A DNA stretch of 24,371 nucleotides, taken from NCBI GenBank assembly GCA_045599485.1, contig JAZRWA010000081.1, positions 1 to 24,371 on the forward strand, given 5' to 3'. Of the stretch, positions 4,009 to 22,033 are shown one piece after another. Each line of letters begins with the position of its first letter. Position 1 is the stretch's first letter. Made by a program: the position numbers and the translations under genes. The notes under the pieces were generated by a model, which was not told the DNA's origin, did no database searches, and worked only from the letters and a program-made list of their open reading frames with translations. The DNA comes from Clostridia bacterium (lineage in GTDB: Bacteria > Bacillota > Clostridia > Christensenellales > Aristaeellaceae).

Positions 4009-4093
4009 CGAGGATGAACGAACGGAGACAATTTGGGAACCACCCTTTTTGAAGCCAAAAAGGGCGGTTCCCAAGCCCTCCGCGAAAAAGCAG
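4006..4093 (+). repeat. Hairpin-plus-tail repeat, copy 1 (starts at the gpmI TAA)
   Basis: Stem-loop TTGGGAACC-ACCCTTTTTG-aagc-CAAAAAGGGC-GGTTCCCAA (4033-4074) followed by the tail GCCCTCCGCGAAAAAGCAG. It is near-identical to 15861-15921. Confidence 0.85.
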
Positions 4094-4107
4094 TTTAACT
4101 GCATAGA

Positions 4108-4176: not shown

Positions 4177-4266
4177 GCCCTTTCTCGGAGGGGGTAAAAG
4201 GGGGAACCATGCTTTCGGGCTCCGAAAGCGTGGTTCCCCCTTAAAAACCTTATCGTTCGCTGTCGA
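4177..4266 (-). repeat. Hairpin-plus-tail repeat, copy 2 (gene-sense with gdhA; doubles as its intrinsic terminator)
   Basis: Read on the minus strand: TAA, spacer ..ACGATAAGGTTTTT.., stem GGGGGAACCA...TGGTTCCCCC (4200-4240), then TTTTA and the tail CCCCCTCCGAGAAAGGGC. Confidence 0.85.
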
Positions 4267-7982
<3,716 letters not shown>

Positions 7983-8001
7983 AACACACCTCCGAACCGC
8001 T

Positions 8002-9105
8002 CTATAACAGATGCGAAATGCAATCCCGGTCCGCCTCCTCGGGGGAGAAGGTGATCAGGTAAACGCGCACATTGGGCCCCATGCGGCGGATGTCGCGGAC
8101 GGCATCGCTGAGCAGGGCACCAAGGCGTGTGGTAATGATGATGACGGCGCCGACCGATACGGCGGCACGGGCTTCCATGAGCAGTACCCGTCCGAAATCC
8201 TGCGGGGAGGAAAAGGTAAGGTGGGCAAGCAGGGTGCTCAGCCCTTCGGTGCTGCCCGAGGGGGCGGCGCGGAACTCGGCCACGTGCTCATCATAAAAGG
8301 GCATGCGCACGGGCGATTGATGGGACAGCTGGATCTCCGCGGCGGACAGCGCCGTCTCGGTCAGCACATCGCGCAAACACAGCGCGCTCTCGCCCTCTGC
8401 CGCGGGGGCGGAGCAGTCGGTCAGGATGAGGGTGCCGGGCGGGGCCGGCGTTTCAAAGCTGCGCACGATGAGCTCGCCGCGGCAGGCGCTCAGCTTCCAG
8501 TGGATGCGCTTGAGGGGGTCGCCGCTGCGCCAGGCGCGGGTGCTGTCGGGGTAGGAGGCATCCTCGGCGGCGGTGAGCCCGCGGGCGGAACCGTCGTCAC
8601 TGCCGGCATATTCCAGGTTCATGGCTTCAAAGGGGCGGGGCAGCACCAGCATTTCTCCGCTTGCGGCCGCAAGGCGGACACGGCAGCGGAACAGGTGCAA
8701 GGGGTCGCTGCAGGCGGCGGAAAGGATCGACAGGCGGCGGCAGCCGACATGGTCGCCGGGCAGGTCGATGGTCAGCTCGGGGCGGCGGGCAGAGCGGCAG
8801 ACAAAGGCGTGCAGAAAGCGCTGCTCCCCGAAGCGGCAATCCAGCGCCCAGCTCATGGGCGTCAGGTAGGAATGGTGATAAAAGCGCACTGCCGGCGAAA
8901 AGCTGCCGCCGCGGAGGACGCGCTGTTCGGCAGGATCGACCTCGCACCGCAGCGTCAGGCGCAGCAGCAGCAGACCCAGTCCGTTGTACAAAAGCGTCAG
9001 CACGGCAAAAACGGCCGCGATATAAAAGAATCGCGCGCCGGAGGCCAGCCCGAACAAAAGTGACATCAGGCCGGTCAGCAGGAAGAAAAAGCCGCGGGCC
9101 GTCAT
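8002..9105 (-). CDS. DUF58-family protein (MoxR-operon partner)
   Basis: 367 aa with two N-terminal TM helices and ...DSTRAWRSGDPLKRIHWKLSA..., typical of DUF58. ATG 9105 overlaps the MoxR TGA (ATGA). It ends at TAG 8002-8004. If TAG is read, it ends at TGA 7966-7968. Confidence 0.75.
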   Translation of the reverse strand: MTARGFFFLLTGLMSLLFGLASGARFFYIAAVFAVLTLLYNGLGLLLLRLTLRCEVDPAEQRVLRGGSFSPAVRFYHHSYLTPMSWALDCRFGEQRFLHAFVCRSARRPELTIDLPGDHVGCRRLSILSAACSDPLHLFRCRVRLAAASGEMLVLPRPFEAMNLEYAGSDDGSARGLTAAEDASYPDSTRAWRSGDPLKRIHWKLSACRGELIVRSFETPAPPGTLILTDCSAPAAEGESALCLRDVLTETALSAAEIQLSHQSPVRMPFYDEHVAEFRAAPSGSTEGLSTLLAHLTFSSPQDFGRVLLMEARAAVSVGAVIIITTRLGALLSDAVRDIRRMGPNVRVYLITFSPEEADRDCISHLL

Positions 9106-10055
9106 TTGAGGCGCATGGGGACGGGCACGGAGGAAAGCAGGGCGGACAGGATGCCGTCGGCGGTCTGCCCCTTCATGCGGGCTTCGGGCGACAGCACCAG
9201 ACGGTGCGCCAGCACCGGCACCGCCATGAGCTTGACATCCTCGGGCAGCACATAATCGCGCCCCGAGAGCAGGGCACAGCCCTGCGAGGCACGCAGCAGC
9301 GCGATGGAGCCGCGGGGCGAGGCGCCCAGCGTCAGCAGGGGATGGCTGCGGGTGGCGGCGGACAGCTGCGCCACATAGGCGCGGATCTACGGCGCGGTGT
9401 AGACATCGCCCACGGCCTGCTGCATGGACAGCACATCCTCGGCGGTGCAGACGGGCTGCAGCGCGCCGAGCGGCACACTGCGCCCGGTGTAGCGCTCCAG
9501 AATGTCCATCTCCTCTTCCAGCGTGGGGTAACCCATGCTGATGCGCAGAAAGAAACGGTCCATCTGCGCCTCGGGCAGGGGGTAGGTGCCGACAAAATCA
9601 ACGGGGTTCTGCGTGGCCAGCACCATAAAGGGCGCGGGCAGGGGGTGCGTGACGCCGTCCACCGTCACCTGACGCTCCTCCATCACCTCCAGCAGGCTGG
9701 ACTGTGTTTTGGGCGAGGTACGGTTGATCTCATCCGCCAGCACGATCTGGCTCATGACGGCACCAGGGCGGAATTCCATCTGCCCCGTGGTCAGCGACGG
9801 CATGGTAAAGCCCGTGATGTCGCTGGGCATCACGTCGGGTGTAAACTGAATGCGCTTGAACGAACAGGAAAGCGAACGCGCCAGCGCGGCCACCATGGTG
9901 GTCTTGCCCACACCGGGCACATCCTCGATCAGCACATGACCGCGGCAGATGAGGGCGATGAGCGCCAGATGGATGGCCTCATCCTTGCCGACGATGACGC
10001 GGCCGATGTTTTTGGAAAGGGCGGAAACCAGGGTCAGAAGGCTGTCTTTCAGCAT
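9102..10055 (-). CDS. MoxR-family AAA+ ATPase carrying one in-frame TAG at 9387-9389
   Basis: Start placed at ATG 10055 (MLKDSL...), with AAGGAG 6 nt upstream and downstream of the promoter at 10092-10120. Walker A is EDVPGVGKT and Walker B is VLADEINR. The frame continues VGDVYTAP-TAG-IRAYVAQLSAATRSHPLLTLGASPRG...GRDYVLPEDVK..HRL, the conserved MoxR lid. 317 codons. Stop is TGA. Confidence 0.85.
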
Positions 10056-10241: not shown

Positions 10242-11834
10242 ATGCTGCGAGTTGCCAACATTTCGGTGCCCCTGTGCCGGGACGCGGACAGGCGGGCTTT
10301 TGAGCTTGCCCTCAAAAAGCTGCGTCTTCCCGAAGAGAGGGTAACGGAATGGCATGTGAGCAAAAAAAGCGTGGACGCCCGGGACAAGTCGAAGCTGTGC
10401 TTTGTGTACGCCATCGACCTTGCCGTTGAAAAGGAAGAGGCCCTCCTCACACGTCTGAAACCCGGCATCGCCGCCAAGGCGCCCGAATCACAGCCCCTGT
10501 GCTGTGAGAAGGCGACCCCCAAAGCACACCGCCCCGTGGTGGTGGGGCTGGGACCGTGCGGGCTGTTTGCCGCCCTGTATCTGGCGCGGGCAGGGCTTCG
10601 CCCGATCTGCCTGGAAAGAGGGCAGCGGGTGGAGGAAAGAAAAAAGAGCGTGCAGCGGTTTTTTGCCGACGGCACGCTGGATCCCGAAAGCAATGTGCAG
10701 TTTGGCGAGGGCGGCGCGGGCGCTTTTTCCGACGGCAAGCTGACGACCGGCATCAAGGATGCCGCCTGCCGTCAGGTGCTGGAGGAGCTGGTGCGCCACG
10801 GCGCGCCCGATAACATTTTGTATGAGGCGCATCCCCATGTGGGCACCGACCGCCTGCCCGGCGCGGTGGCGGCCATCCGCGAGGAGATCCTTGCCCTGGG
10901 CGGCGAGGTGCGCTTTGAAACAAAACTGCTGGGACTGATCTCCGAAAACGGCCGTCTGCGCGCCCTGCGTGTGACGGACGGCAGCACTGAAACCGAATTG
11001 CCCTGCGACAGCGTCATTCTGGCATTGGGGCACAGCGCCCGCGACACCGTGCGGCAATTGTATGCCGACGGTCTGCGCATGGAGCAGAAGCCCTTTTCCG
11101 TGGGCGTGCGCGCGGAGCATCCGCAGGCGCTGGTCAACCGCTCGCAGTACGGCAAAGCCGCCGACAGCGGACTGCTGGGCGCGGCGGAATACCATATCCA
11201 TGTTAAATTGCCCGATGGACGTGGCGTGTACTCCTTCTGCATGTGTCCCGGCGGTCAGGTGATCGCCGCGGCCAGCGAGGAAGGCGGCGTGTGCACCAAC
11301 GGTATGAGCGTGTTTGCCCGTGACGGCGAAAACGCCAACGCCGCCCTGCTGGTGGATGTGCGTACGGAGGATTTTCCCTCTAAGCATCCGCTCGCGGGCA
11401 TGGAGATGCAGCGCGAATGGGAGCACAGGGCGTTTATCGCGGGCGGAGGCAATTACCGTGCCCCGGCGCAGCGCATGGAGGACTTTTTGAACCGCCGTCC
11501 CAGCACCCATGGCGGCCCGGTGCAGCCGAGCTATCGCCCGGGCGTGACGTGGACCGATCTGGACGAGGTGCTGCCTGCCTTCGCGGCGGAAAGCCTGCGG
11601 GCGGGCATCCCGCTGCTCAAAAGGCAGCTGCACTGCATTGACCTGCCCGACGCCGTGCTGACGGGCATTGAGGCACGCTCCTCCAGCCCCGTGCGCATCC
11701 CGAGGGATGAGACGCTGCAATCCACGGTGCGCGGCGTGTTCCCCGCCGGGGAGGGCGCCGGCTATGCGGGCGGCATCATGAGCGCGGCCGTGGACGGCCT
11801 GCGCGCCGCCAAAGCCCTGATCCAAAATGATTGA
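10242..11834 (+). CDS. FAD-dependent protein (COG2509-type NAD(FAD)-utilizing dehydrogenase)
   Basis: ATG 10242 lies 7 nt after GGAGG. Rossmann motif VVVGLGPCGLFAALYLARAG, plus ...FCMCPGGQV... and GEGAGYAGGIMSAAVDG. Stop is TGA. Confidence 0.8.
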   Translation: MLRVANISVPLCRDADRRAFELALKKLRLPEERVTEWHVSKKSVDARDKSKLCFVYAIDLAVEKEEALLTRLKPGIAAKAPESQPLCCEKATPKAHRPVVVGLGPCGLFAALYLARAGLRPICLERGQRVEERKKSVQRFFADGTLDPESNVQFGEGGAGAFSDGKLTTGIKDAACRQVLEELVRHGAPDNILYEAHPHVGTDRLPGAVAAIREEILALGGEVRFETKLLGLISENGRLRALRVTDGSTETELPCDSVILALGHSARDTVRQLYADGLRMEQKPFSVGVRAEHPQALVNRSQYGKAADSGLLGAAEYHIHVKLPDGRGVYSFCMCPGGQVIAAASEEGGVCTNGMSVFARDGENANAALLVDVRTEDFPSKHPLAGMEMQREWEHRAFIAGGGNYRAPAQRMEDFLNRRPSTHGGPVQPSYRPGVTWTDLDEVLPAFAAESLRAGIPLLKRQLHCIDLPDAVLTGIEARSSSPVRIPRDETLQSTVRGVFPAGEGAGYAGGIMSAAVDGLRAAKALIQND

Positions 11835-11851
11835 AAAAAGGAGGAAAGACC

Positions 11852-13420
11852 ATGCAGAATAACCCGCAGGAAAACCGTTATACCAAAAAAGGCTACGTGG
11901 AGCTGACCTCCTCTTATTCCGCCGCGCCGCGGCAGCCGCAGCGCCCCGCACAAAATAATCCGTACCAACAGCCGGTACAGAACAATCCATATCAGCAGCC
12001 TGCGCAGGGCAACCCGTATCAGCAGTCTGCGCAGAACAATCCGTATCAGCAGCCTGCGCAGGGCAATCCGTACCAACAGCCGGTACAGAACAACTCCTAT
12101 CAGCAGCCGGTACAGCCGCAGCCGCCGGAAGAGCCGGAGGACAGCGAATACCGTCAGGAATACTATCAGGCGCAAAAGCCCGCGCCCTTCAAGGCGCAGA
12201 ACGCCTATCAGGCCCCGAGGCCGAAGGGGCACGGTGCCTTCAACGTGATCCTGATCATACTGATCATTTTGCTGGTGCTGGCCGGCGGCATGGCGGTGTT
12301 CAGCCGTTATGGCGGCACCATCGACAACAAGCAGACCAGCGGCATCATCAATTCCAGCCTGCGCACCAGCTATACAGGCGACGCCGTCATTGTGCGCAAC
12401 GAGACGCTCTTTACGCAGGAGAACATTTCCCGCATTGAGTTTGGCGTCCGCGAAGGCGGTCAGGTCAAGCGCGGTGATACCGTTTGCACGGTGTACACCT
12501 CGGGCGTCAGCAAGACCGATATCAGCAACCTGGCCACCTACCGCACGCAGGTGGAAAGCTACATGAAAACGCTTCTGGCCTCCAGCAATGCGGAGACCGA
12601 TCAGGAGATGCGGTACCACAACAACACCGTGCTGCAGCTGGCGCAGGATATCCAGACCGCCGTACACCGCGGCGGCGGCAACCTCGGCAATCTGGAAAGC
12701 CGCCTCAACAGCGCCGTATCCGAGCGTGCCTATTACATCAAGCAGAAGTTTGTGGATGACCAGAAGCTGGCCAGGCTGTATGATGAGGCCAAAACCACCG
12801 AGCAGAAGGTGGAAACGTGGACCAAGTCCTTCGGCGCGACCGATGTGGGCGTGGTCTCCTTCTACACCGATTATTTTGAGCGCGCCCTCAACCTGAACAC
12901 CTATGAGAGCTTTTCTCCCGCCGAGGTGCGCTCCATGTACAACGGCATCCTGCCCGCTTCGGTCAACTTTGCCCGCAACGAGGTGCCTGTTTACCGTCTG
13001 GTGAGGGATGGCAGCTATGTGGTGCTGATGCTGTGCGACGACCTGACCTGGAACCCCACCGTGGGCTCCACCTATGAGCTGACCATTGAAAGCTTTTCCA
13101 ACCGCAGCGTGGCGGCGACGGTGGAATCGGTCTCCCTGTCCGACAAAGACCTGCTGGTGCGCCTGCGCATCAGCGGCAGCGTGAGCGACATCCTGTATGT
13201 GCGCTCCTGCCATGTGCAGCTGACCGAGATCATTGCCAGCATTGCCGTGCCCGCCGGCGCCATCACCACCTATAACGGCGAGATCGGTGTGGTCGTCATT
13301 CAGGCGGACGGCGAGTATTTCCTGCCCGTGACCATCATCAGTCAGGACAGCCAGACGGCGTACATCCTGCCGCAGATCGACAATATCCTGACGCAGAACT
13401 CCACCCTGCGCCTGTTCTGA
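11852..13420 (+). CDS. Membrane-anchored protein with an N-terminal Q/N/P/Y nonapeptide repeat and a HlyD/membrane-fusion-like body
   Basis: ATG 11852 lies 7 nt after GGAGG. It has a repeat region, a TM helix (AFNVILIILIILLVLAGGMAVF), then a lipoyl-like hairpin motif (GGQVKRGDTVCTVY) and a coiled-coil-like stretch. The functional call is tentative. Stop is TGA. Confidence 0.5.
   Translation: MQNNPQENRYTKKGYVELTSSYSAAPRQPQRPAQNNPYQQPVQNNPYQQPAQGNPYQQSAQNNPYQQPAQGNPYQQPVQNNSYQQPVQPQPPEEPEDSEYRQEYYQAQKPAPFKAQNAYQAPRPKGHGAFNVILIILIILLVLAGGMAVFSRYGGTIDNKQTSGIINSSLRTSYTGDAVIVRNETLFTQENISRIEFGVREGGQVKRGDTVCTVYTSGVSKTDISNLATYRTQVESYMKTLLASSNAETDQEMRYHNNTVLQLAQDIQTAVHRGGGNLGNLESRLNSAVSERAYYIKQKFVDDQKLARLYDEAKTTEQKVETWTKSFGATDVGVVSFYTDYFERALNLNTYESFSPAEVRSMYNGILPASVNFARNEVPVYRLVRDGSYVVLMLCDDLTWNPTVGSTYELTIESFSNRSVAATVESVSLSDKDLLVRLRISGSVSDILYVRSCHVQLTEIIASIAVPAGAITTYNGEIGVVVIQADGEYFLPVTIISQDSQTAYILPQIDNILTQNSTLRLF
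11951..12112 (+). repeat. Six tandem 27-bp coding repeats
   Basis: Units start at 11951, 11978, 12005, 12032, 12059 and 12086. Each encodes Q(N/G)N(P/S)YQQ(P/S)(V/A). Confidence 0.95.
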
Positions 13421-15000: not shown

Positions 15001-15837
15001 ATGCCTGCTGAAACCACGGTGCCCGTTTCCATTGCCGAGGATGTGCGGCTGGCGGCGGCGACGCTCAATCATTTTTATCAGAGCCTGCCTAATATTTTGT
15101 ATCATCTGGCCCTGTCGGGCGTGATCATTGTGCTGGGGCTGCTGCTGTTGAAGCTGATGCGGCGGCTGATCAACAAAAGCTATCGCCGCAAGGTGCAGGA
15201 GCGCAACTCCAGAGAGGCGGAAACCTTCCGTTCGCTCATCAGCAGCGTGGTCAGCTATCTGTTTTATTTTCTCATCGCGCTGACGGTGCTGCACGTGATG
15301 GGCGTGGATGTGTCCTCCATTCTGGCGGTTGCCGGAATCGGCACGGTCGCCATCGGCTTTGGCGCGCAGGCGCTGGTGAAAGACATCATCAGCGGCATGT
15401 TCCTGTGGCTGGAGGGCAATGTGGCGGTGGGCGATGTCATTACCGCCGCCGGCTGCAGCGGCGTGGTGGTCAGGGTATCGCTGCGCACCACCACCATCCG
15501 CAGCGCGGATGGCTGCTGCTGCGTGGTGCCCAACGGGGATATCCGAACGGTCATCTGCCGCTCCCGGGACATGGTCAAGTCACAGGTCAATGTGACGCTG
15601 GCACATGGGCAGGATATGGAAAAGGCGCTGGCCGTCCTGCGGGAGGAATGCGCTTTGGTGGGCGAGCAGCTGCACCTGAAGGACGCGCCGAAGGTGGTGG
15701 GCTGCATTGCCAACGACGCGCGCTGTGTGACCATCCGCTGTGAGTGCGACAGCAAGCCGTAGGATGACTGGCGGGTCGAGCGGGAGCTGCGCGAGCGGCT
15801 GTTTGAGCGGCTGTACCGCGAGGGCTTCAAGGCGTAA
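15001..15837 (+). CDS. MscS-family mechanosensitive channel carrying one in-frame TAG at 15760-15762
   Basis: AGGAGG lies 6 nt upstream. GIGTVAIGFGAQALVKDIISGMFLWLEGNVAVGDVI...LRTTTIRSADG..VPNGDI is the MscS core. After ..CECDSKP-TAG the frame continues DDWRVERELRERLFERLYREGFKA, typical of the MscS C-terminal helix, to TAA 15835-15837. Confidence 0.8.
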
Positions 15838-15921
15838 CGGAGACGAAGACGATGAGGTTTTTGGGAATCCCCCTTTTTGAAGTCCCAAAGGGCGGTTCCC
15901 AAGCCCTCCGCGAAAAAGCAG
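15835..15921 (+). repeat. Hairpin-plus-tail repeat, copy 3 (starts at the MscS TAA)
   Basis: TTGGGAATCCCCCTTTTTGAAGTCCCAAAGGGCGGTTCCCAA (15861-15902) plus GCCCTCCGCGAAAAAGCAG, near-identical to copy 1. Confidence 0.85.
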
Positions 15922-16291
15922 ATCAAAAAGTACTTACAATTTTGCTTTGATGTCAGTATCAGGAATCCCGGAACGTATGTTGTGATATTATCATGAAAAA
16001 CGGTAAGTTAAATCCGCAAGAAGTTTGAATGTGATGGATAATGATATGTTTGATGCGAAACAAATTGAATTTTTGCATGAAATCGGGTTATAGATAGATA
16101 ATGACAAACTAACCGATGACGATTGTATTTGTATTTAGGATGCAGTTTCGTAGTATCTTCAAAAATATGGCTTTGATGAAGGATATAACATCAATGAAAT
16201 GGGTGTCATGTGTGAGTCAATTTTAGATGTGATATCTGAAATCGACGAATTAAAATGATTAAGGCAAAGGATTAATGAAGTAAAAAAATCA
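15922..16291. other. AT-rich island (foreign-looking insert)
   Basis: Direct count gives 17/60 G+C for 16021-16080 and 19/60 for 16081-16140, against flanks above 60%. It is bounded by repeat copies 3 and 4. Confidence 0.8.
16034..16258 (+). pseudogene. 74-codon acidic ORF with three in-frame TAG codons (pseudogene under the standard code; intact if TAG is sense)
   Basis: One frame reads MDNDMFDAKQIEFLHEIGL-TAG-IDNDKLTDDDCICI-TAG-DAVS-TAG-YLQKYGFDEGYNINEMGVMCESILDVISEIDELK-TGA. TAGs are at 16091, 16136 and 16151. There is no in-frame TAA or TGA despite about 30% GC. No clear RBS. Confidence 0.5.
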
Positions 16292-16372
16292 GCCCTTTCT
16301 CGGAGGGGTGCAGGGGAACCATGCTTTCCGGCTTCGGAAAGCGTGGTTCCCCTGCATAAAAAAACCGGAGGT
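16292..16372 (-). repeat. Hairpin-plus-tail repeat, copy 4 (reverse orientation)
   Basis: Reverse-orientation tail GCCCTTTCTCGGAGGGG (16292-16308) and stem TGCAGGGGAACCA...TGGTTCCCCTGCA (16309-16356). The GGAGG RBS of the next gene lies in the element's spacer. Confidence 0.85.
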
Positions 16373-17002: not shown

Positions 17003-17079
17003 CGAGAGGATGTTGGGGCGACCACTCTTTCCGAAGCCGGAAAGCATGGTCGCCCCAAACCCCACCCGAAAAAGGGCAG
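17000..17079 (+). repeat. Hairpin-plus-tail repeat, copy 5 (starts at the DUF3267 TAA)
   Basis: TAACGAGAGGATG, stem TTGGGGCGACCA..CTTTCCGaagcCGGAAAG..TGGTCGCCCCAA (17013-17058), tail ACCCCACCCGAAAAAGGGCAG, then a T-run. Confidence 0.85.
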
Positions 17080-18534: not shown

Positions 18535-18572
18535 GGCCTTTTCTCGGGTGGGGTTCGGGGAGGGGATGCTTT
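18535..18572 (-). repeat. Truncated hairpin-plus-tail repeat, copy 8
   Basis: GGCCTTTTCTCGGGTGGGGTTCGGGGAGGGGATGCTTT parallels the reverse complement of copy 5 (TGCCCTTTTTCGGGTGGGGTTTGGGGCGACCATGCTTT). The second hairpin arm is missing. Confidence 0.6.
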
Positions 18573-19609: not shown

Positions 19610-20641
19610 TCAGGGGCGGAAACGGTTGGTGGCCAGATAACGGCCAAACTCGCGCGGGTTTTCCATGGTGGCGGCGCAGCCCATGGCCACGCAGTCATGC
19701 GGGTTGGCGGCCACGGTGCACTTGACCTTGAGGGAGGCGGCAATGGCATCGGACAGGCCGTACAGCATGGCACCGCCGCCGGTGAGGGTGATGCCGCTTT
19801 TGTCAAAAATGTCGTTGCCCAGCGCGGCCGGGGTGCGCTCCAGCACACCGCGGATCTTTTCGATCAGGTCGGTAAGCGGCTCGTCCATGGCCTCAAAAAC
19901 CTCATCCGAGGAGACGCGCAGCGATTTTGGCAGACCGCTGATGAGGCTGCGGCCGGCGACATCGGCATACAGCGATTCACGCAGGGGAATGGCGGAGCCG
20001 ATATCCATCTTGAGCTTTTCGGCGGTAAGCTCGCCGATGAGGAAGTTGTGCTTGCGGCGCAGATAGCGGATGATGGCCTCGTCAAACTGATCGCCACCCA
20101 GCTTGGGATTGTCGCTGACGGTGACATGATCGTTGGAAAGCACGGCAATGTCGGTCATGCCGGCGCCGATATCCACCACCATGGAGCCGCTGACCGAGCG
20201 GACATCAATGCCCGCGCCGAGGGCGGCGGCCAGGGGACGATCGAGCGGCTGCACGCGCTTGCAGCCCGAATCGTACAGGATGGCGGCGATGTGGCGGCGT
20301 TCTTCCTCATTGATGCCGCTGGGCATGGAAATAACGGCGTTCGGGCGCTTGAACCAGTGCTTGCCCACCGTTTGCTGCACAAAATAGCTGAGCAGATCCT
20401 TGGCGGCCTGGATATCGCTGACCACGCCTTCGCGCAGCGGGCGCACTGCCACCAGGTGGGAGGGTACACGGCCGATCATGCGGTAGGCGTCGCGGCCCCA
20501 GTAACGGATGCACCGGGAGGCGGGCGCATCGGGCTCTTTGATGACGACCGACGCCTCGCGCAGCTTGATGCCGTCGCCGCAGGCGTAGATGATCAGCGAG
20601 GAAGTACCCAGATCGATGCCGATGTCTTCAACGGATGCCAT
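19610..20641 (-). CDS. MreB/Mbl-family actin-like protein
   Basis: 343 aa. DIGIDLGTSS, ...VISMPSGINEEERR.., ..MVVDIGAGMTDIAV.. and ..ITLTGGGA.. are actin-fold phosphate and adenosine motifs. Stop is TGA. Confidence 0.85.
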   Translation of the reverse strand: MASVEDIGIDLGTSSLIIYACGDGIKLREASVVIKEPDAPASRCIRYWGRDAYRMIGRVPSHLVAVRPLREGVVSDIQAAKDLLSYFVQQTVGKHWFKRPNAVISMPSGINEEERRHIAAILYDSGCKRVQPLDRPLAAALGAGIDVRSVSGSMVVDIGAGMTDIAVLSNDHVTVSDNPKLGGDQFDEAIIRYLRRKHNFLIGELTAEKLKMDIGSAIPLRESLYADVAGRSLISGLPKSLRVSSDEVFEAMDEPLTDLIEKIRGVLERTPAALGNDIFDKSGITLTGGGAMLYGLSDAIAASLKVKCTVAANPHDCVAMGCAATMENPREFGRYLATNRFRP

Positions 20642-20764: not shown

Positions 20765-22033
20765 TTAAACTCCACTTTCGTCCTGCATCCACAGGGTGCG
20801 GCGGCCTAAAACATCCACCGTCATGATGACGGGATCCCCACGCAGAATGGGCAGGCTGATGGTGGTTTGAAGCTATGGCGTCTGCTTGAGGCGCGCGGCG
20901 GAGGTGTAGACCTGAAAAACGCCGTCCCGGAGGTAGCCGGCGGACCACTGGTCCACCGCGTCGAGCGGGTGCCGGAGGCCGCCGGGCAGCAGCTTTTCGA
21001 TGAGCGCGCGGTCCTCCGCTCCCGGCAGGTAATCGGTCAGGGTGATGCTGTAATAGCCGATGCCGGGCAGCACCGAGGCCTCCATTTTTTCGGGGCGGTC
21101 GGAAAGGGGCGCACGCAGCGCCAGCCCTGTGCCGAGCAGGCGTTTGCGGCTGACCGAGATGGCGGCTTCCCCGCAGTCGATGCCCAGATAGCGGCAGCCG
21201 TTTTCGTGCGCGGCGATGAGCGTGGTGCCCGAGCCGCAGCACAGGTCGGCCACGAGGTCGCCGGGGCGGGTGCAGCAGCGGATGATGCGGTCCAGCAGCG
21301 CGCGGGGCTTTTGCGTATCATAGCCGGTGCGCTGGGGGTCCTTCTGCTGCAGGTGGCTGACATCCATCCACACGTCGTCGGGATAGACGGGCTCATCATC
21401 GTAATAGGTGTAGACCTTGCCGCCCACGCGGATGGTGCGGCAGGCGCGGCCGTTTTCGTCCACCGAGCGCTTCATGTGGTTTTCACGGTTTTCGCCGCGG
21501 GGGATGGGCACGCGGGTGATATCAAAAAACAGATTGCGGGATTTGGCGTAGAACAGGATGACGTCGTGCTTGCGGCTGAAATGCTTTTTGCTGCGGCCGC
21601 CGGACTGGTAGGCCCAGATGATCTCATTGATAAAGTTTTTTTCACCGAAGATCTCGTCGCACAGCAGGCGCGCGTAGGCGTTCATGCGGCTGTCCAGATG
21701 GAGGAAAAGGGCACCGGTATCGCTGAGAAGCAGCTTGGCCTGCTCCAGCAGGGCGCGCAGGAGCGTTAAAAATTCCTCCCGGCTGCTGCCGTGAAAATCG
21801 CCGAAGGCGGGCAGCGTCAGCACAGGGCTGCCTTTTTCCCAGCCCTCGCGGCCGCAGCGCATGCGGAAATGAAACTCCTCCCCGGTAAAGAAGGGGGGAT
21901 CGATATATACGCACTGCGCCTGCCCCTTCCACGGGGTCAGCGAAACAGCGGCGGCGTTGTCCATCAGCAGGATGCCGCCGGGGCCGTCGCTCATGTGCAG
22001 CTCTTTTTGACATTCGGTGCGGTGCCAGGCCAT
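20765..22033 (-). CDS. Beta-class (N6-adenine type, DPPF) DNA methyltransferase with a C-terminal extension, carrying one in-frame TAG at 20873-20875
   Basis: Motif IV is VYIDPPFF, followed by motif I DLCCGSGTTLIAAHENGCRYLGID (PF01555 order). After ..ARLKQTP-TAG the frame stays open for 35 GC-rich codons (LQTTISLPILRGDPVIMTVDVLGRRTLWMQDESGV) to TAA 20765-20767. That is exactly where composition drops to AT-rich intergenic DNA. Confidence 0.75.

What the first reader, a model, noticed from the sequence alone, without database searches (positions are those of the whole stretch)
9102..10055. MoxR AAA+ ATPase interrupted by TAG between the ATPase core and the lid domain
The coding strand reads ...GAT GTC TAC ACC GCG CCG TAG ATC CGC GCC TAT GTG GCG CAG CTG..., which translates as DVYTAP-TAG-IRAYVAQLSAATRSHPLLTLGASPRG.

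The segment after the TAG is the conserved MoxR region (x-x-Y-I/V-x-x-L-x-x-x-T-R...G-A-S-P-R) followed by GRDYVLPEDVK and HRL. It has no RBS or ATG of its own, and the ORF track only finds a GTG at 9374.

Together with the transglutaminase, two of the three genes of one operon need TAG read-through to be full length.
Basis: partly seen in the sequence, partly recalled or inferred. Interest (0 to 1): 0.7.

Follow-up and report, generated by a model that had tools for sequence, protein, structure and literature searches.

The report
Amber codon read as amino acid
The TAG that seems to cut this MoxR ATPase gene in two is one of many in-frame TAGs in a small group of gut Christensenellales bacteria, which apparently translate TAG as an amino acid (most likely glutamate), something not yet described for any bacterium.

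Summary
A TAG at 9389..9387 (minus strand, codon 223 of 317) lies between the AAA_3 core and the AAA_lid_2 domain of a MoxR gene.

It is not a one-off lesion. All five TAGs in real reading frames of the window are internal relative to homologues: MoxR, DUF58, transglutaminase, MscS and a DNA methyltransferase. No window gene ends at TAG.

Related contigs from at least five other assemblies (85-97% nucleotide identity) add seven more in-frame TAG sites. These are in TruA, a histidine kinase (two sites), a response regulator, a Fic-like protein, an XRE regulator and a second transglutaminase site.

- Two sites are shared between assemblies.
- There are no in-frame TGA or TAA codons and no frameshifts.
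- dN/dS downstream of the TAGs is 0.03-0.40.
- 179 orthologues from more distant Christensenellales have no in-frame stop.
- The nearest sense relative has Glu at six of eight sites (GAG or GAA). Distant homologues have Glu at two more. Column log-odds are +14 nats for Glu.

Best reading: a clade-wide UAG sense codon, probably Glu. The suppressor tRNA and the status of RF1 could not be examined. The literature searched reports no bacterial UAG reassignment.

The parts
9102..10055 (-). MoxR-family AAA+ ATPase gene, 317 codons including an in-frame TAG at codon 223; stop TGA at 9104..9102 overlaps the DUF58 start
   Evidence: AAA_3 E=7.7e-61; AAA_lid_2 E=5.1e-26; orthologues of 317 aa at 96% identity.
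9387..9389 (-). In-frame TAG, codon 223 of MoxR; Glu (GAG) in the closest relatives
   Evidence: L001-L003 carry GAG here. Glu in 18 of 18 aligned orthologues.
9546..9938 (-). AAA_3 ATPase core (residues 40-170; Walker A GVGKTT, Walker B LADEIN)
9147..9356 (-). AAA_lid_2 domain (residues 234-303, contains GASPRG), encoded wholly downstream of the TAG
   Evidence: dN/dS 0.18-0.20 after the TAG.
7966..9105 (-). DUF58 gene. The TAG at 8004..8002 (codon 368) is internal; read-through to TGA 7968..7966 gives 379 aa, against 380 aa in the relatives
   Evidence: relatives have GAA at this codon; outgroup alignments continue past it.
5694..7982 (-). Transglutaminase-like membrane protein (TgpA_N, Transglut_core, DUF4129), 762 codons with an in-frame TAG at 6527..6525 (codon 486), four codons before the GYC motif that holds the conserved Cys of the transglutaminase core
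   Evidence: L001 has GAG; dN/dS is 0.24 after the TAG and 0.26 before it.
15001..15837 (+). MscS-type channel gene with an in-frame TAG at 15760..15762 (codon 254 of 278)
   Evidence: MS_channel_3rd spans the TAG; closest uninterrupted homologue has GAG Glu; the same TAG is present in L085, L086 and L087.
20765..22033 (-). N6/N4 DNA methyltransferase gene with an in-frame TAG at 20875..20873 (codon 387 of 422)
   Evidence: homologues are 405-423 aa and stay homologous for the 35 residues (36 codons with the stop) after the TAG. L088 and L089 share the TAG. L110 has CAG.

Best explanation
In this bacterium and its close relatives, a roughly genus-level clade of uncultured gut Christensenellales, UAG is not a terminator. 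It is a rare sense codon, most likely read as glutamate.

The MoxR mRNA is therefore translated straight through codon 223. This gives the normal 317-aa AAA+ ATPase with Glu at a position where its orthologues have Glu. The same applies to the other two genes of the operon (DUF58 and the transglutaminase), to MscS and to the DNA methyltransferase.

Shown:
- TAGs occur in frame in many unrelated genes.
- Sequence downstream of them is conserved.
- TAG positions are shared between strains at some sites and differ at others.
- No gene in the sample ends at TAG.
- The TAG columns prefer Glu.

Inferred, not shown:
- The decoder is a tRNA with a CUA anticodon, probably derived from tRNA-Glu by a C36-to-A change.
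- RF1 is lost or disabled, so that RF2 terminates at UAA and UGA.
- A non-discriminating GluRS, usual in Clostridia that lack GlnRS, might tolerate the altered third anticodon base. This last point is speculation from general knowledge.
For: 1. All five TAGs in GC3-supported frames of the window are internal relative to homologues.

2. Twelve distinct in-frame TAG sites were found in about 33 gene families of the clade. The sources are independent assemblies: the window's NCBI MAG, GCA_024404275.1, GCA_024500545.1, ENA ERZ27247129 and Logan SRR27361835, SRR28408226, SRR21151038 and SRR18398363. ERZ27247179 (L110) and SRR21150928 (L111) contributed the sense-codon versions used for comparison.

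3. There are no in-frame TGA or TAA codons and no frameshifts in these genes. About 60% of random nonsense changes would give TAG, so the chance that all 12 are TAG is about 0.002.

4. No gene ends at TAG, whereas outgroup Christensenellales loci use TAG for about 16% of stops (57 of 353 crude calls). The chance of none in 23 genes is 0.018, and in about 33 gene families about 0.003 (0.84^33; one search gives the 23-gene figure).

5. Two sites are conserved across strains, with the frame and the homologous end kept (MscS, methyltransferase).

6. dN/dS after the TAGs is 0.03-0.40, and equals the upstream value in the transglutaminase and the histidine kinase.

7. 84 MoxR, 54 transglutaminase and 41 DUF58 orthologues from GTDB outgroup genomes carry no in-frame stop.

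8. Amino acid. The nearest sense relative has Glu at 6 of 8 sites: GAG four times and GAA twice. GAA is not a one-step neighbour of TAG. Binomial P is 0.0003-0.004. Distant homologues have Glu at the XRE and Fic sites. Summed column log-odds are +14.3 nats for Glu and -5.0 for the next best residue.
Against: - No tRNA gene is present in the window or in any clade contig.
- RF1 could not be looked for.
- There is no proteomic evidence.
- One site has Gln (CAG) in a relative at 94% nucleotide identity, and one has Ser (TCG) in the nearest relative.
- TAG positions are skewed towards 3' ends. All five in the window lie in the last 36% of the gene, and 10 of 12 overall lie in the 3' half. This suggests that decoding is inefficient or that UAG still terminates part of the time.
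- TAG is only 0.07% of codons.
- Two large code surveys report no bacterial UAG reassignment. The prior is therefore low, although neither survey could be shown to have covered these MAGs.
Confidence: 0.75

Rival explanations
1. Partial suppression. UAG is still recognised by RF1, but a suppressor tRNA or near-cognate reading lets a fraction of ribosomes through. Each TAG-containing gene then yields a mixture of truncated and full-length protein, and the TAGs act as tolerated or expression-lowering variants.
For: TAG sites are skewed towards 3' ends. TAG is very rare, 5 in 7398 codons. Conserved in-frame stops with dN/dS below 1 have been described sporadically in bacteria (PMC7918605).
Against: No genuine TAG terminator was found among about 33 gene families, against about 16% in the outgroup. 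TruA carries a TAG at codon 48 of 273, and the L001 transglutaminase at codon 237 of 766. Roughly one gene in five is affected, far more than the sporadic cases reported. The Glu preference implies a specific decoder.
Confidence: 0.13
2. UAG is a sense codon but encodes something other than Glu: pyrrolysine, as in the archaeal all-TAG-as-Pyl code, or glutamine, as in recoded phages and many eukaryotes.
For: A genome-wide UAG-to-Pyl code exists in archaea (bioRxiv 10.1101/2024.09.30.615893). One site aligns with CAG Gln in a close relative. Every site is at a polar and probably exposed position.
Against: For Pyl codes the cited authors state that TAG replaces different codons with no consensus. 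Here Glu dominates with +14 nats. If UAG meant Gln, most TAGs should derive from CAG by a transition, but only 1 of 8 does. Two sites correspond to GAA, which points to amino-acid identity and not to mutational proximity.
Confidence: 0.08
3. Ordinary nonsense mutations. MoxR and the other genes are pseudogenes in a decaying genome.
For: The MoxR TAG is seen only in this genome, and GAG to TAG is a single substitution. None of the affected genes is strictly essential.
Against: All twelve lesions are TAG; none is TGA, TAA or a frameshift. dN/dS downstream is well below 1. Frames and homologous ends are kept across strains that share a TAG. Glu columns are enriched. Neighbouring housekeeping genes are intact.
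Confidence: 0.03
4. Sequencing, assembly or polishing artefact, for example G-to-T damage errors.
For: Several sites differ from relatives by a G-to-T or C-to-A change.
Against: The MscS TAG recurs in contigs from three different Logan runs plus an NCBI MAG. The methyltransferase TAG recurs in the ENA ERZ27247129 contig and in the Logan contig of ERR6929691, which may be one and the same sample, and in the 386-aa product P0361 (MCQ2454400.1) of an NCBI MAG, which is truncated at that codon. Two sites need two substitutions from GAA.
Confidence: 0.01

Closest known systems
Bacterial UGA reassignments (translation tables 4 and 25: Mycoplasmatales and other lineages read UGA as Trp; Gracilibacteria and Absconditabacteria read UGA as Gly)
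   Same: A stop codon becomes a sense codon throughout a monophyletic bacterial clade. Standard gene callers split or truncate the genes. The expected mechanism is a cognate suppressor-type tRNA plus loss of one release factor.
   Different: The codon here is UAG, not UGA, so RF1 and not RF2 would have to be lost. The amino acid is Glu. The clade is GC-rich (about 60%) and its genome is not obviously reduced. According to PMC8629427, all known bacterial stop reassignments involve UGA.
UAG-to-Gln recoding in bacteriophages (code 15-like; crAss-like and Lak phages)
   Same: In-frame TAG codons are decoded by a tRNA(CUA) in a bacterial translation system.
   Different: That recoding is a phage trait, confined to phage genomes and often to late genes, and the amino acid is Gln. 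Here the TAGs are in chromosomal housekeeping and accessory genes (TruA, MscS, MoxR) and the columns prefer Glu.
Archaeal Genetic Code 34 (all TAG read as pyrrolysine; bioRxiv 10.1101/2024.09.30.615893)
   Same: Genome-wide loss of TAG as a stop. TAG is rare and scattered in ordinary genes. Coding density under table 11 is hardly changed, so the recoding is easily missed.
   Different: Code 34 needs the Pyl machinery, and TAG columns there show no amino-acid consensus. Here the consensus is Glu.
UAR-to-Glu nuclear codes of peritrich ciliates and Blastocrithidia (PMC12153298)
   Same: The same codon-to-amino-acid assignment (UAG read as Glu), carried out by cognate tRNA-Glu with an altered anticodon.
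   Different: Those are eukaryotic, involve eRF1, and usually change UAA together with UAG. Here UAA still terminates about 40% of genes.
Laboratory amber suppressors and RF1-deleted E. coli (for example PMC4434889)
   Same: They show that a bacterium can live without UAG termination and can read UAG with a tRNA(CUA).
   Different: They are engineered strains. Nothing in the literature searched reports a natural bacterial lineage fixed in this state.

Membership tests
MoxR AAA+ ATPase (AAA_3 + AAA_lid_2) | AAA_3 P-loop core with Walker A and Walker B motifs | tested here: met
   PF07726 matches residues 40-170 over the full model, E=7.7e-61. GVGKTT and LADEIN are visible in the translation.
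MoxR AAA+ ATPase (AAA_3 + AAA_lid_2) | C-terminal lid domain contiguous with the core in one polypeptide | tested here: inconclusive
   PF17863 matches residues 234-303, E=5.1e-26, in the same frame. Contiguity depends on translating the TAG at codon 223. That is supported by comparative evidence, but the protein itself has not been observed.
MoxR AAA+ ATPase (AAA_3 + AAA_lid_2) | Operon partner of the DUF58/vWA type | tested here: met
   The DUF58 gene overlaps the MoxR stop, and a transglutaminase gene follows. The same order is found in L001 and L003.
Genome-wide stop-codon reassignment | The codon occurs in frame at homologous positions in many unrelated genes | tested here: met
   Twelve sites in eleven different genes of the clade.
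Genome-wide stop-codon reassignment | A consistent amino acid at the aligned columns | tested here: met
   Glu at 6 of 8 nearest-relative sites and at 2 of 2 sites with only distant homologues. Log-odds +14.3 nats. The exceptions are one Gln and one Ser.
Genome-wide stop-codon reassignment | The codon is no longer used as a genuine terminator | tested here: met
   None among about 33 gene families sampled, against about 16% in the outgroup. The sample is small, about 35 kb of non-redundant sequence.
Genome-wide stop-codon reassignment | Phylogenetically coherent distribution | tested here: met
   Present in every clade assembly that gave a few kb or more (85-97% nucleotide identity to the window). 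Absent from 179 outgroup orthologues.
Genome-wide stop-codon reassignment | Cognate tRNA with an anticodon complementary to the stop codon | not testable with these tools
   No tRNA gene in the window or in clade contigs. The full MAGs could not be retrieved.
Genome-wide stop-codon reassignment | Loss or alteration of the matching release factor (RF1, prfA) | not testable with these tools
   prfA is not in the sequence held, and there was no way to query the MAGs.
Pyrrolysine decoding | pylTSBCD genes and TAG in methylamine methyltransferases | not testable with these tools
   Neither is present in the sequence held. Indirect evidence against: the Glu consensus at TAG columns.

The most novel reading that the evidence does not exclude
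A clade of uncultured, GC-rich gut Christensenellales uses a previously undescribed bacterial genetic code. UAG is reassigned from stop to glutamate, and UAA and UGA are the only terminators. This would be the first natural bacterial reassignment of the amber codon to a canonical amino acid.
Probability: 0.6. Interest if true: 0.92.

Novelty: new variant of a known kind. Interest (0 to 1): 0.86.

Why it matters
All accepted bacterial stop-codon reassignments involve UGA. Amber reassignment is known from phages, eukaryotes and, as pyrrolysine, archaea.

A free-living, GC-rich gut bacterium that reads UAG as Glu would:
- add a new code table;
- give a natural example of life without RF1-type UAG termination;
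- provide a natural tRNA(CUA) and GluRS pair of interest for genetic-code engineering;
- bear on phage-host code conflicts in the gut.

There is also a practical consequence. About one gene in five of these MAGs is currently annotated as truncated or split. Examples are the 386-aa methyltransferase and the 253-aa MscS in the NCBI-derived gene calls for this contig. Completeness, pseudogene and functional calls for the clade are therefore wrong under table 11.

Tried and rejected
- Looked for the window's own genome by exact-protein look-up with MreB, DUF58, DUF362 and the methyltransferase. Nothing was on record, although the collection lists products from a 24,372-bp NCBI contig.
These loci served as controls.
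- The JGI metagenome scan with the histidine kinase gave only homologues at 34% identity or less. They were no use for judging the TAG column.
- tblastn of MscS and the methyltransferase against the GTDB loci gave no hits, because synteny is not kept.
- The first all-ORF tblastn screen for in-frame stops was swamped by off-frame ORFs of this GC-rich DNA. It was replaced by a screen with curated window proteins.
- tRNA scans of the window and nine clade contigs found no tRNA.
- PDB alignment of the response regulator showed that its TAG lies in the variable inter-domain linker, which says nothing about the amino acid.
- No shared sequence context was seen around the twelve TAGs. The base after the TAG is A four times, G five times, C twice and T once. 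Context-dependent recoding of the SECIS or PYLIS type was therefore not pursued.
- A restart at GTG 9374, giving a split two-polypeptide MoxR, was considered and rejected. There is no ribosome-binding site, and all homologues are single chains.

Full report
**Observation**

On the minus strand, the frame 10055..9102 is open except for one TAG at 9389..9387. It starts at an ATG eight bases after AAAGGAG and ends at a TGA that overlaps the next gene's ATG. The joined 317-aa product matches Pfam AAA_3 over residues 40-170 (E=7.7e-61) and AAA_lid_2 over residues 234-303 (E=5.1e-26). The TAG is codon 223, between the core and the lid. After the TAG the first start-like codon is the GTG at 9374, with no ribosome-binding site.

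**What the orthologues show**

All 120 listed homologues are single proteins, nearly all 313-323 aa (one of 378 aa), that cover both halves. Four are 96% identical to the window product. In an alignment of 18 of them the TAG column is Glu in every sequence. Contigs carrying the closest orthologues (L001-L004, 85-90% nucleotide identity) have GAG at that codon in the three that were aligned, L001-L003.

**The window as a whole**

GC3 periodicity and Pfam identify about 23 real genes, all chromosomal and including housekeeping genes. They include Gdh, iPGM, an M18 peptidase, MreB, SepF and DivIVA. Only five TAGs lie in these frames, and every one is internal relative to homologues.

| Gene | TAG position | Codon | Evidence |
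|---|---|---|---|
| MoxR | 9389..9387 | 223 of 317 | see above |
| Transglutaminase | 6527..6525 | 486 of 762 | four codons before the GYC motif with the conserved core Cys; L001 has GAG |
| DUF58 | 8004..8002 | 368 | L001 and L003 have GAA and run 12 codons further, to 380 aa, overlapping the transglutaminase start exactly as the window does if read through |
| MscS | 15760..15762 | 254 of 278 | the Pfam C-terminal domain spans it; the closest uninterrupted homologue has GAG Glu and most others have Glu or Asp |
| N6/N4 DNA methyltransferase | 20875..20873 | 387 of 422 | all homologues are 405-423 aa and clearly homologous over the last 35 residues |

The other genes end in TGA or TAA.

**Relatives**

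The collection holds contigs of a narrow clade from independent assemblies.

- The MscS TAG is at the same codon in contigs from three different Logan runs (L085-L087) and in the NCBI MAG GCA_024500545.1. The following 24 codons are open, keep the family's near-invariant W, E, R and R, and end at the homologous TAA.
- The methyltransferase TAG is shared by ENA ERZ27247129 and Logan ERR6929691 (L088, L089). It is also implied by the 386-aa product MCQ2454400.1 from an NCBI MAG, which is truncated at that codon. The tail shows four synonymous and two conservative differences from the window. Another strain has CAG at this codon (L110).
- L001 has its own TAG in the transglutaminase at codon 237. 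The window has TCG there, and Glu is the commonest residue in more distant homologues.
- New clade DNA to the left of the window (L090 from ERZ27247129 and L091 from GCA_024404275.1) adds four sites:
  - an OmpR-type response regulator, TAG at codon 128, in both contigs;
  - a histidine kinase, TAG at codon 219, in both contigs;
  - the same kinase, codon 234, TAG in L091 and GAG in L090;
  - TruA, codon 48 of 273, TAG in L091 and GAA in L090.
- L088 has TAGs in a Fic-like gene and in an XRE regulator. Homology to plasmid-borne homologues continues across both.

In total there are twelve distinct in-frame TAG sites in about 33 gene families. There is no in-frame TGA or TAA, no frameshift, and no gene that ends at TAG.

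**Controls**

- Curated window proteins were searched against 84 GTDB loci of other Christensenellales and more distant bacteria. They matched 84 MoxR, 54 transglutaminase and 41 DUF58 orthologues, none with an in-frame stop.
- Crude gene calls in the outgroup loci use TAG for 16% of stops (57 of 353). The chance that none of 23 window genes ends at TAG is therefore 0.018. For about 33 gene families it is about 0.003 (0.84^33).
- From the window's codon usage, about 60% of random single-step nonsense mutations would give TAG. Twelve out of twelve then has a probability of about 0.002.
- dN/dS after the TAGs:

| Gene | dN/dS after TAG | dN/dS before TAG |
|---|---|---|
| MoxR | 0.18-0.20 | 0.04-0.05 |
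| Transglutaminase | 0.24 | 0.26 |
| Methyltransferase | 0.15 | 0.011 |
| MscS | 0.40 | 0.10 |
| Histidine kinase | 0.03 | 0.07 |

Pseudogenes and sequencing errors are therefore poor explanations.

**Which amino acid**

The nearest relative with a sense codon has:
- Glu at six of eight sites: GAG for MoxR, transglutaminase 486, MscS and kinase 234; GAA for DUF58 and TruA;
- Gln at one site (methyltransferase, CAG);
- Ser at one site (L001 transglutaminase, TCG).

GAG makes up only 16-24% of the one-step neighbours of TAG in this genome, which gives P = 0.0003-0.004. GAA is not a one-step neighbour at all. Distant homologues have Glu at the XRE site and at two of three sequences for the Fic site. 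Summed log-odds over ten columns are +14.3 nats for Glu and -5.0 for the runner-up. Two sites could not be judged. The response-regulator TAG lies in a variable linker, and the column for kinase codon 219 was not examined.

**Mechanism**

The pattern is what a clade-wide reassignment of UAG to a sense codon would produce. TAG terminators have been purged. TAG reappears at low frequency (0.07% of codons, about 1% of Glu codons), mostly at Glu sites, and the sites vary between strains.

The expected machinery is a tRNA-Glu-derived tRNA(CUA) together with loss or weakening of RF1. I could test neither. No tRNA gene lies in the sequence held, and the MAGs could not be fetched.

The 3'-biased distribution of sites suggests that decoding is inefficient or that some termination persists. 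A partial-suppression state is therefore the main rival.

Pyrrolysine is disfavoured. In Pyl codes TAG columns show no consensus, whereas here they do.

**Literature**

- The Codetta screen states that all known bacterial stop reassignments involve UGA (PMC8629427).
- A 2026 k-mer screen of 2.7 million assemblies lists no bacterial TAG reassignment (10.64898/2026.04.02.715157).
- gTranslate mentions genome-wide UAG recoding only for archaeal pyrrolysine.
- Sporadic conserved in-frame stops in bacteria have been described (PMC7918605), but not at this density and not with an amino-acid consensus.
- I found no report on Christensenellales.

**Verdict**

The MoxR gene is intact and is made full length by reading UAG. 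The interest lies in the lineage's genetic code, not in MoxR. Confidence that UAG is translated in this clade is about 0.85. Confidence that it means Glu is about 0.65-0.7. The tRNA, RF1 and protein-level evidence are missing and are the decisive next steps.

Noticed in passing
window 4032-4098 and 15860-15926; related copies at 4201-4227, 16293-16352, 17016-17075 and 18536-18572: A family of intergenic, self-complementary GC-rich repeats, about 40-67 nt and REP- or terminator-like. Copies of 29-42 nt, identical to window copies, sit at or next to the ends of relatives' contigs (L085-L088, L111). The repeats probably cause the assembly breaks.
   Followed up: partly
window 11939-12115: Five tandem 27-nt (9-aa) repeats rich in Q, P, N and Y, near the N-terminus of the HlyD_2-family gene (11831-13420).
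   Followed up: no
window about 5950-6330 (minus strand): A long low-complexity linker rich in Ser, Pro and Thr ([13 protein letters not shown]...) between the transglutaminase core and the C-terminal transmembrane and DUF4129 part.
   Followed up: no
all twelve TAG sites (window, L001, L088, L090, L091): In-frame TAGs are skewed towards the 3' part of genes. All five in the window lie in the last 36% of the gene, and 10 of 12 overall lie in the second half. This hints at inefficient decoding or residual termination at UAG.
   Followed up: partly
L088 1978-2910 and 7818-8123: The related strain carries a Fic-like gene and a small XRE-family regulator that the window lacks. Each has its own in-frame TAG, so even accessory and probably mobile genes in the clade contain TAG sense codons.
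   Followed up: partly
window 20765-22033 and its neighbour MreB (19610-20641): An orphan N6/N4 DNA methyltransferase with a conserved C-terminal extension of about 130 aa is widespread in related Clostridia (homologues of 405-423 aa). It lies next to mreB in the window and in the clade contigs L088 and L110. No restriction partner is visible.
   Followed up: no
public annotation of this contig (products P0241 and P0364): The gene calls on record for this contig (source NCBI) give the methyltransferase as 386 aa and MscS as 253 aa, that is, truncated at TAG. Table-11 annotation of these MAGs therefore mis-describes about one gene in five.
   Followed up: yes
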